Shown here one piece after another: positions 45,061 to 45,220 of a DNA stretch of 64,000 bases. The position numbers were made by a program, and so were the translations under genes. The stretch is taken from the IMG/VR virus record IMGVR_UViG_3300028833_000002; one strand, written 5' to 3'. Numbering within the stretch: the first letter of the stretch is position 1; each line of letters begins with the position of its first letter. This DNA comes from a virus (taxonomy: Duplodnaviria > Heunggongvirae > Uroviricota > Caudoviricetes). Below the pieces are notes generated by a model that saw only the letters and a list, made by a program, of their open reading frames with translations, was not told the DNA's origin and did not search any database.

Positions 45061-45220
45061 AAATAGCATGGCGTGCTATTTATAAGCCTAGGATAAGGAA
45101 TCGAACCTTATTGAATACCGACTACCTAAGCCGCAAAGATGATGTTGTATATCATATTATAGGAGGGAATGAACAACAATGAGGAAAGGAAAATTAAACT
45201 TTTCACATCATCTTTACTAT
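45061..45220 (-). ncRNA. Candidate structured RNA: 13-bp stem with a pyrimidine-rich anti-SD loop, an anticodon-less tRNA-like acceptor/T domain, and a 3' hairpin
   Basis: Starts ~7 nt below the -10 at 45227-45232. Stem GUAAAGAUGAUGU (45217-45205) pairs with ACAUCAUCUUUGC (45145-45133). GCUUAGG/CCUAGGC acceptor-like stem, AUAAGG-UUCGAUU-CCUUAU T-arm (45131-45086), and AAAUAGCA/UGCUAUUU hairpin (45081-45061). The G-U pairs form only on the - strand. Confidence 0.6.

What the first reader, a model, noticed from the sequence alone, without database searches (positions are those of the whole stretch)
45061..45220. Candidate novel structured RNA: anti-Shine-Dalgarno loop plus an anticodon-less tRNA-like domain
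Seen (- strand, starting at the expected TSS of tandem strong promoters): (1) a 13-bp stem closing a ~59-nt pyrimidine-rich loop with two anti-SD-like tracts (UUUCCUUUCCUC and UUCCCUCCUA); (2) directly after it, GCUUAGG-13 nt-AUAAGG UUCGAUU CCUUAU-CCUAGGC, i.e. an acceptor stem and canonical T-arm but no D or anticodon arm and no encoded CCA; (3) a perfect 8-bp hairpin, then ~45 nt to the HTH gene. G-U pairs in both stems work only on this strand, which argues for selection on RNA structure. Established: acceptor+T mimics are substrates of RNase P/RNase Z and bind EF-Tu or Ro60 (tmRNA, bacterial Y RNAs, mascRNA), and exposed C-rich loops seed RBS pairing (e.g. S. aureus RNAIII). Inference: a processed phage sRNA that could occlude ribosome-binding sites, decoy anti-tRNA defences, or act as a processing/regulatory leader for the HTH-ssb-sak4 genes. 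In a recoding phage a translation-related RNA is especially notable.
Basis: partly seen in the sequence, partly recalled or inferred. Interest (0 to 1): 0.8.

Follow-up and report, generated by a model that had tools for sequence, protein, structure and literature searches.

The report
Phage antisense RNA with mini-tRNA tag
A large rumen phage carries a conserved small RNA that mirrors a gene's ribosome-binding site and start codon and is fused to a shrunken, anticodon-less tRNA that probably lets host enzymes cut it out; I found the pairing in no catalogue or paper searched, but expression and target are not shown.

Summary
The structure is real. On the minus strand (45220-45085) a 13-bp stem encloses a 59-nt loop, directly followed by a 47-nt anticodon-less mini-tRNA. 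A divergent relative (L126) keeps the whole fold with five compensatory pair changes; ten changes among close relatives all fall in unpaired positions. Corrections: the mini-tRNA has a canonical D-loop (AGUYGGUA); lack of CCA is normal in this phage; the 3' hairpin belongs to the HTH leader, because seven related loci have promoter-hairpin-HTH without the RNA. The loop is the reverse complement of a whole initiation region (Shine-Dalgarno, spacer, AUG), not only an anti-SD. A second Clostridia phage family has arrays of such guides before mini-tRNAs, and there one guide matches the downstream gene's start beyond chance. Here no target was found: not the HTH gene, not another phage gene. Best reading (0.5): an antisense guide excised by RNase P/RNase Z, which also restores the operon's 5' end; c4-like in action, t-element-like in processing, a member of neither. 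No RNA ends could be measured. The scan has noted free-standing phage mini-tRNAs many times, and anti-RBS motifs in a Bacillus phage tRNA array, on other DNA.

The parts
45308..45336 (-). distal sigma-70/SigA-type promoter with extended -10
   Evidence: 11 of 12 matches; kept in L001, L006, L224
45227..45255 (-). proximal promoter; expected transcription start at 45220
   Evidence: same promoter and same first bases in L126
45205..45217 (-). P1 stem, 5' strand (13 bp here, 9-10 bp in L126)
   Evidence: two compensatory changes in L126
45146..45204 (-). 59-nt guide loop: reverse complement of an SD-spacer-AUG initiation region
   Evidence: strict pattern, shuffle rate 0.9%; only 15 of 47 non-SD columns identical to L126 against 8 of 11 SD-core columns
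45181..45192 (-). tract A, weak anti-SD-like run, followed by the anti-AUG CAU at 45181-45179
45160..45169 (-). tract B, anti-SD core CCCUCCU, exposed in a small hairpin loop
   Evidence: p unpaired 1.0; core kept in all five variants
45133..45145 (-). P1 stem, 3' strand; ends one base before the mini-tRNA
45085..45131 (-). anticodon-less mini-tRNA: acceptor (45131-45125 / 45092-45086), D-loop motif (45123-45116), T-arm (45111-45093), discriminator U45085; predicted RNase P cut 5' of 45131 and RNase Z cut 3' of 45085
   Evidence: three compensatory and one G-C to G-U change in the acceptor; D-loop GG and T-loop invariant. Cuts are inferred from tRNA-processing rules
45060..45082 (-). 9-bp hairpin/palindrome of the HTH mRNA leader; older than the RNA module
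   Evidence: same half-sites with 7-9 nt spacer about 42-48 nt before the HTH start in seven loci that lack the module
44756..45016 (-). 86-aa winged-HTH-like gene, first gene of the operon (SD at 45032-45027)
   Evidence: weak Pfam BlaI/LexA hits below cut-off; PHROG MarR-like E 2.5e-4
43718..44656 (-).
   Evidence: PF27337 on close homologues; SSB function not tested
42690..43643 (-). 317-aa AAA_24 (Sak4-like) ATPase, one TAG read as Gln

Best explanation
The module is a small-RNA cassette inserted between the promoter and the leader of the HTH operon. Shown by sequence comparison: the fold, the insertion, the anti-initiation-region loop. Inferred: host RNase P cuts 5' of the mini-tRNA and host RNase Z cuts 3' of it. 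That gives (1) an 88-nt RNA whose two ends are sealed by P1 and whose loop can pair with the SD and AUG of other mRNAs and block ribosome loading in trans, (2) a 47-nt mini-tRNA by-product, and (3) an operon mRNA that again starts at its ancestral 5' hairpin. The target is probably a host gene or a gene of a competing phage; it was not found.
For: L126 folds by itself into the same four helices with 5 two-sided changes, 0 of 500 shuffles, slid controls 0-2. Ten changes among four close variants are all unpaired, Fisher p 0.002. D-loop GG and T-loop, the elbow read by RNase P, are invariant; acceptor plus T stem is 12-13 bp. Seven outgroup loci lack the module but keep promoter, hairpin and HTH gene. 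The loop keeps SD cores and an anti-AUG while the rest has drifted to 32% identity. In a second Clostridia phage family (L159, L376, L377) all six segments before tRNA-like units are anti-initiation regions (five by the strict pattern, shuffle rates 0.1-1.4%; background 1 of 230 windows), and the guide next to a mini-tRNA matches the downstream gene's start with SD and AUG held fixed in the null (p under 0.002, 0.002, 0.006). L376, L377 and L126 were found through proteins, not through the RNA pattern.
Against: No target found for this family in the phage or in 121 genomes of the family of the bin that holds a sister phage. All covariation comes from one divergent sequence, so only two lineages. 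The strict pattern was defined after seeing the sequences, and L159's first unit was selected by a pattern containing CTCCT. No RNA ends, strand or level could be measured. Most phage mini-tRNAs seen here have no such guide. The host is unknown.
Confidence: 0.5

Rival explanations
1. Cis element only: the mini-tRNA punctuates the operon transcript, and the 5' domain either masks the HTH ribosome-binding site until it is cut off or is a mere by-product.
For: Free-standing mini-tRNAs between phage genes are common. In the L159/L376/L377 family the guide matches the gene right downstream. In L126 the uncut leader pairs the HTH SD with the 5' domain at probability 0.56.
Against: In the window that probability is 0.002; own RBS ranks 57-134 of 223 and the shuffle test gives p 0.34 and 0.81. 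The HTH SD is the same in relatives without the module. The module sits at the very 5' end, where there is nothing upstream to separate from the proximal promoter's transcript except the guide itself.
Confidence: 0.2
2. Decoy or protein ligand: the RNA mimics the tRNA elbow and the 16S rRNA 3' tail to absorb an anti-phage nuclease or CCA-end toxin, or binds EF-Tu or the phage's Ro60.
For: Invariant D- and T-loops; L126 carries ACCUCCU as in 16S rRNA. The phage encodes a TROVE/Ro60 protein.
Against: No anticodon loop to bait anticodon nucleases. The anti-AUG at RBS spacing is not explained by a 16S mimic. The Ro60-binding motif is absent, the tRNA-like domain is not permuted as in YrlA, and the Ro60 gene is 79 kb away.
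Confidence: 0.12
3. The anti-SD and anti-AUG are simply the real start of a tiny gene on the plus strand (a type I toxin-like peptide or minigene), with the minus-strand RNA as its cis antisense.
For: The plus strand reads SD, spacer, ATG and a 30-aa hydrophobic frame; a plus-strand promoter-like site lies at 45010-45039.
Against: The frame is cut to 4-5 codons in the L001/L007/L223 lineage and lies in another register in L126; it changes frame between L376 and L377. The hydrophobic tail is only the reverse complement of the promoter. The promoter scan finds 10 sites against 7.7 by chance.
Confidence: 0.08
4. A decaying tRNA gene plus a chance hairpin.
For: tRNA genes do insert into this operon in relatives (cluster behind the HTH gene in L225).
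Against: Compensatory changes in both domains; the RNA is better conserved than the upstream gene (4 mismatches and 2 gaps in 136 nt against 40 of 384); no relative has an intact tRNA here; none of the phage's 26 tRNAs shares the acceptor.
Confidence: 0.03

Closest known systems
c4 antisense RNA of phages P1/P7 (PMC12197685; RNase P processing from my own knowledge)
   Same: Phage RNA with loop-displayed sequences that pair around a ribosome-binding site and block translation; matured by a tRNA-processing enzyme.
   Different: No Rfam c4 match; other fold; here the processing signal is a separate anticodon-less tRNA 3' of the guide; Clostridia-type host; no target known.
Plant mitochondrial t-elements (PMC1920247, PMC11658184) and mascRNA/menRNA (RF01684)
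   Same: tRNA-like structure that lets RNase P and RNase Z define the ends of flanking RNAs; no encoded CCA; probably CCA-tailed but not charged.
   Different: Phage of bacteria; no anticodon arm at all; defines the 3' end of a small RNA and the 5' end of an mRNA at once. The window has no Rfam hit; the L376 unit scores 21.9 bits against a cut-off of 42.5.
C-rich anti-SD small RNAs of Firmicutes: RNAIII, RsaE/RoxS (PMC9217828)
   Same: Two exposed C-rich seeds, one a UCCC motif in a hairpin loop, able to pair with SD sequences.
   Different: No sequence or Rfam relation; ends made by a mini-tRNA and not by a terminator; guide extends over the AUG.
YrlA/bacterial Y RNA (PMC4201824; RF02553)
   Same: Two-domain RNA with a D-loop/T-loop tRNA mimic; some are cut by RNase P and CCA-tailed; the phage has Ro60.
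   Different: No GNCGAAN0-1G motif; D precedes T (not permuted); the tRNA-like part lies outside the terminal stem; far from the Ro60 gene.
tmRNA tRNA-like domain
   Same: Acceptor stem, stemless or short D-loop, T-arm, no anticodon arm.
   Different: U3-G70 in place of the alanine mark G3-U70; no tag frame or pseudoknots; ARAGORN finds none.

Membership tests
tRNA (RF00005) | anticodon arm | tested here: not met
   4 nt (window) or 7 nt (L126) between D-loop and T-stem; no default ARAGORN or Rfam hit
tRNA (RF00005) | acceptor stem, D-loop GG, T-loop UUCRANY | tested here: met
tmRNA | G3-U70 alanine identity and tag reading frame | tested here: not met
   U3-G70 in all variants; no tag frame
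Y RNA / YrlA | 5' GNCGAAN0-1G Ro60-binding motif | tested here: not met
   definition from PMC4201824
Y RNA / YrlA | T arm before D arm with closed acceptor stem-loop between them | tested here: not met
   order here is acceptor, D, T, acceptor
Y RNA / YrlA | Ro60 gene in the genome, usually adjacent | tested here: inconclusive
   TROVE gene present but about 79 kb away
t-element / mascRNA-type processing signal | tRNA-like fold at the junction of two RNA products, conserved by structure | tested here: met
t-element / mascRNA-type processing signal | actual cleavage by RNase P and RNase Z; CCA addition | not testable with these tools
   only assembled contigs of RNA runs were available
c4 antisense RNA | match to the c4 covariance models | tested here: not met
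   no hit at E up to 10
c4 antisense RNA | loop sequences complementary to the RBS region of a specific target mRNA | tested here: inconclusive
   generic anti-SD and anti-AUG present; no specific target in this family; specific match in the L159/L376/L377 family
C-rich anti-SD sRNAs (RsaE/RoxS, RNAIII) | unpaired UCCC-type seed | tested here: met
   tract B p unpaired 0.8-1.0 in all variants
C-rich anti-SD sRNAs (RsaE/RoxS, RNAIII) | homology to the family; shown repression of targets | tested here: not met
   no Rfam hit; repression not testable here

The most novel reading that the evidence does not exclude
Clostridia phages use a modular guide-plus-mini-tRNA format: exchangeable antisense guides against translation starts, singly or in arrays, cut out by the host's tRNA-processing enzymes, a natural counterpart of engineered tRNA-gRNA arrays. 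This lytic-type phage would have captured one unit (the L126 guide aligns with the L159 guide, score 44, 0 of 500 shuffles) to silence a host, prophage or defence gene in trans.
Probability: 0.3. Interest if true: 0.8.

Novelty: new variant of a known kind. Interest (0 to 1): 0.6.

Why it matters
Phage small RNAs with a known mode of action are few and nearly all from Proteobacteria; Clostridia-type gut and rumen hosts are hardly covered. If right, this gives one job for the many anticodon-less mini-tRNAs in phage genomes: a 47-nt, host-encoded-enzyme cut signal that lets a phage slot a regulatory RNA into an essential operon without harming its mRNA. It is directly testable in vitro with RNase P and RNase Z, and the second family supplies ready guide-target pairs. 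It would also be a compact natural part for multiplexed RNA release in Gram-positive hosts.

Tried and rejected
Rfam scans of the window, L126, L159, L376 and 15 mini-tRNA loci: no family at its cut-off over these elements. BLAST against 50,697 cultured phages: no relative. A low-threshold ARAGORN tRNA-Pro call overlapping the site has a mispaired acceptor and is noise. Candidate target: the vWA-type gene at G000 136473-137354 ranked 1, 1, 2, 1 of 223 for four guide variants, but shuffled guides with fixed cores also rank it first in 31, 20 and 11 of 40 trials, and its start region has changed in the sister phage G001:C94 without a change in the guide: rejected as a sticky G-rich site. Own HTH start as target: not supported. 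Target patterns in the bin G001, its family (121 genomes) and the genus of the L159 bin: no convergent hit. RNA runs: four metatranscriptomes of three studies hold the operon; operon contigs begin at 45068, 45060, 45025 and 44922, two short pieces cover the guide down to 45121 and 45162, and none crosses the mini-tRNA; this fits a cut there but cover is low, contigs show no ends or strand and no DNA control was laid, so it is not counted as evidence. Host search by DNA similarity found only nrdD/G-like matches. The phage has no CCA-adding enzyme of the PolyA_pol family. Five literature searches on anticodon-less, mini-tRNA or tRNA-like phage RNAs found no description; the library lacks most subscription papers.

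Full report
Context. The window is part of a complete 180.6-kb phage genome that reads TAG as glutamine (coding cover 0.91 against 0.74), has 26 tRNAs including an amber suppressor and occurs in sheep and cattle gut runs. A 93% identical sister phage is binned in a Eubacterium sp. MAG from yak, which suggests but does not prove a Clostridia host. The element lies on the minus strand between a 127-aa gene and an operon of a winged-HTH-like gene, a YorF-family gene, a Sak4-like ATPase, PIN-PhoH, helicase and primase.

The observation. The minus strand folds at z -3.5, the plus strand at -1.1. No Rfam family or tRNA is called. With the canonical T-loop this gives the full tRNA elbow. The missing CCA means nothing: the phage's own tRNAs almost all lack it and it has no CCA-adding enzyme, so it relies on host RNase Z and CCA addition.

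Conservation. Five distinct variants were found (window, L001=L007=L223, L006, L224=L204, L126). Among the four close ones about ten changes all fall outside the main helices (p 0.002; one of them breaks a pair of a small inner hairpin not counted in that structure). L126, whose HTH protein is 82% identical, folds unaided into the same helices plus a 4-bp D-stem. It has two compensatory changes in P1, three in the acceptor and one G-C to G-U (0 of 500 shuffles; slid controls 0-2). In the machine alignment two acceptor cells do not pair; a one-base shift, fitted by hand, repairs both. All of this rests on one divergent lineage, so it is strong for the fold but not a formal covariation test.

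Boundaries. Seven loci from more distant phages with the same gene order (L131, L133, L135, L221, L222, L225, L226) go straight from promoter to the AAATAG/CTATTT hairpin to the HTH gene. The hairpin is therefore an old feature of the HTH leader (RNA hairpin or operator; its spacer varies from 7 to 9 nt), and the RNA module proper is 45220-45085, most simply an insertion. An RNase Z cut after U45085 would leave an mRNA starting two bases before that hairpin, close to the ancestral arrangement (inference).

The loop. Outside the SD-like cores the window and L126 loops are only 32% identical, the cores 8 of 11. Both are the reverse complement of an SD, a spacer and AUG-A; in L126 it is a textbook start with an 8-nt spacer, with the anti-SD shown in a 6-bp hairpin loop. 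A real gene on the plus strand is unlikely, since the frame is 30, 5 and 19 codons long in three different registers.

The wider class. A D-loop/T-loop pattern found many anticodon-less mini-tRNAs between genes of unrelated phages; most have no anti-SD segment upstream. One locus, L159 from a Clostridia bin, has two mini-tRNAs in tandem, each behind an anti-initiation segment. Its relatives L376 and L377, found through the neighbouring protein alone, carry arrays of the same plan between an amidase gene and the terminase operon. Eight of nine segments meet a strict anti-start pattern with shuffle rates of 0.1-1.4% against 1 of 230 background windows (pattern defined afterwards). In that family the guide beside a mini-tRNA pairs with the start of the gene downstream far better than shuffles that keep the anti-SD and anti-AUG (p under 0.002, 0.002, 0.006), and guide and start change together between L159 and L376/L377. 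So in at least one family these segments are target-matched antisense elements. The L126 guide aligns with the L159 guide, and the window guide with the first L376/L377 guide, better than shuffles, which hints at shared descent, though shared anti-SD content inflates such scores.

Target here. The HTH start is not special (rank 92 of 223, p 0.34). The best phage hit, a vWA-type gene, fell as a sticky G-rich site. No convergent bacterial target appeared. The closed P1 stem, ending one base before the predicted RNase P site, is what a free, end-protected RNA would look like, so I favour a trans target outside this genome, but this is inference.

Mechanism and odds. Shown: fold, conservation, insertion, anti-start loop, recurrence in a second family. 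Inferred from established tRNA-processing rules: RNase P and RNase Z cuts (about 0.8). Inferred: the released 88-nt RNA blocks ribosome loading in trans (0.5 overall). Rivals: cis switch or punctuation only 0.2; decoy or protein ligand 0.12; plus-strand minigene 0.08; decayed tRNA 0.03. RNA runs gave only contigs and settle nothing.

Known systems. It works like c4 RNA (PMC12197685) and the UCCC-seed RNAs (PMC9217828) in action, and like t-elements (PMC1920247, PMC11658184) or mascRNA in processing. It fails the membership tests for tRNA, tmRNA, YrlA (PMC4201824) and c4. I found no paper on the combination, within a library that lacks most subscription journals. The scan's own notes report free-standing phage mini-tRNAs often and anti-RBS motifs in a Bacillus phage tRNA array; these are unchecked and not counted as support.

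Verdict. Real, conserved and uncatalogued; a new variant of known kinds. Interest 0.6, held down by two lineages, no expression data and no target.

Noticed in passing
L159:2120-2335 (+), L376:2490-2930 (+), L377:2660-2950 (+): Clostridia phage family with arrays of anti-initiation guides and tRNA-like units (mini-tRNAs, a class II-like unit, a weak YrlA-like hit) between an amidase gene and an acidic 230-250-aa protein of no known family; one guide matches that gene's start. Deserves its own study as a processing-dependent translation switch.
   Followed up: partly
window 45060-45082 (-); L131, L133, L135, L221, L222, L225, L226: Half-sites AAATAG/CTATTT with a 7-9 nt spacer always 41-48 nt before the HTH start; stem sequence never covaries, which suggests protein recognition (autoregulation by the HTH protein?).
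   Followed up: partly
L020, L042, L029 and about 25 more; L013, L065, L057, L071, L076, L086, L100, L125: Several unrelated families of free-standing anticodon-less mini-tRNAs (11-13 bp acceptor plus T stem) between phage genes, often followed by a hairpin; none has an Rfam hit where tested.
   Followed up: partly
L004:2745-2860 (+): A different promoter-bounded, structured element of about 110 nt upstream of a related HTH gene; no Rfam hit.
   Followed up: no
L225:2930-3450 (+): Cluster of five tRNA genes inserted between the HTH and YorF genes, so this operon tolerates tRNA-type insertions.
   Followed up: no
L288, L319, L323, L331, L346, L351, L373: Gut phage family with a tRNA-like gene whose anticodon arm looks enlarged or altered (GCGGAAAA-type loop), preceded by a small hairpin; not examined.
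   Followed up: no
L138, L145, L151, L152, L154, L165, L179, L180, L182: Thorarchaeota tRNA-Arg-type genes with variable inserts in the D and anticodon arms, probably multiple introns.
   Followed up: no
window 43718-44656 versus L223:3501-4445: L223 has a 67% identical YorF allele beside a near-identical HTH gene and RNA, pointing to gene swap by recombination.
   Followed up: no
window 45227-45336, 45760-45788, 45922-45950; L135, L225: Tandem near-consensus promoters repeat two or three times before the HTH gene in several relatives.
   Followed up: no
G000:148263-148440: Extra T-arm-like stem-loops between tRNA genes that belong to no called tRNA (148263, 148423, 150646).
   Followed up: no
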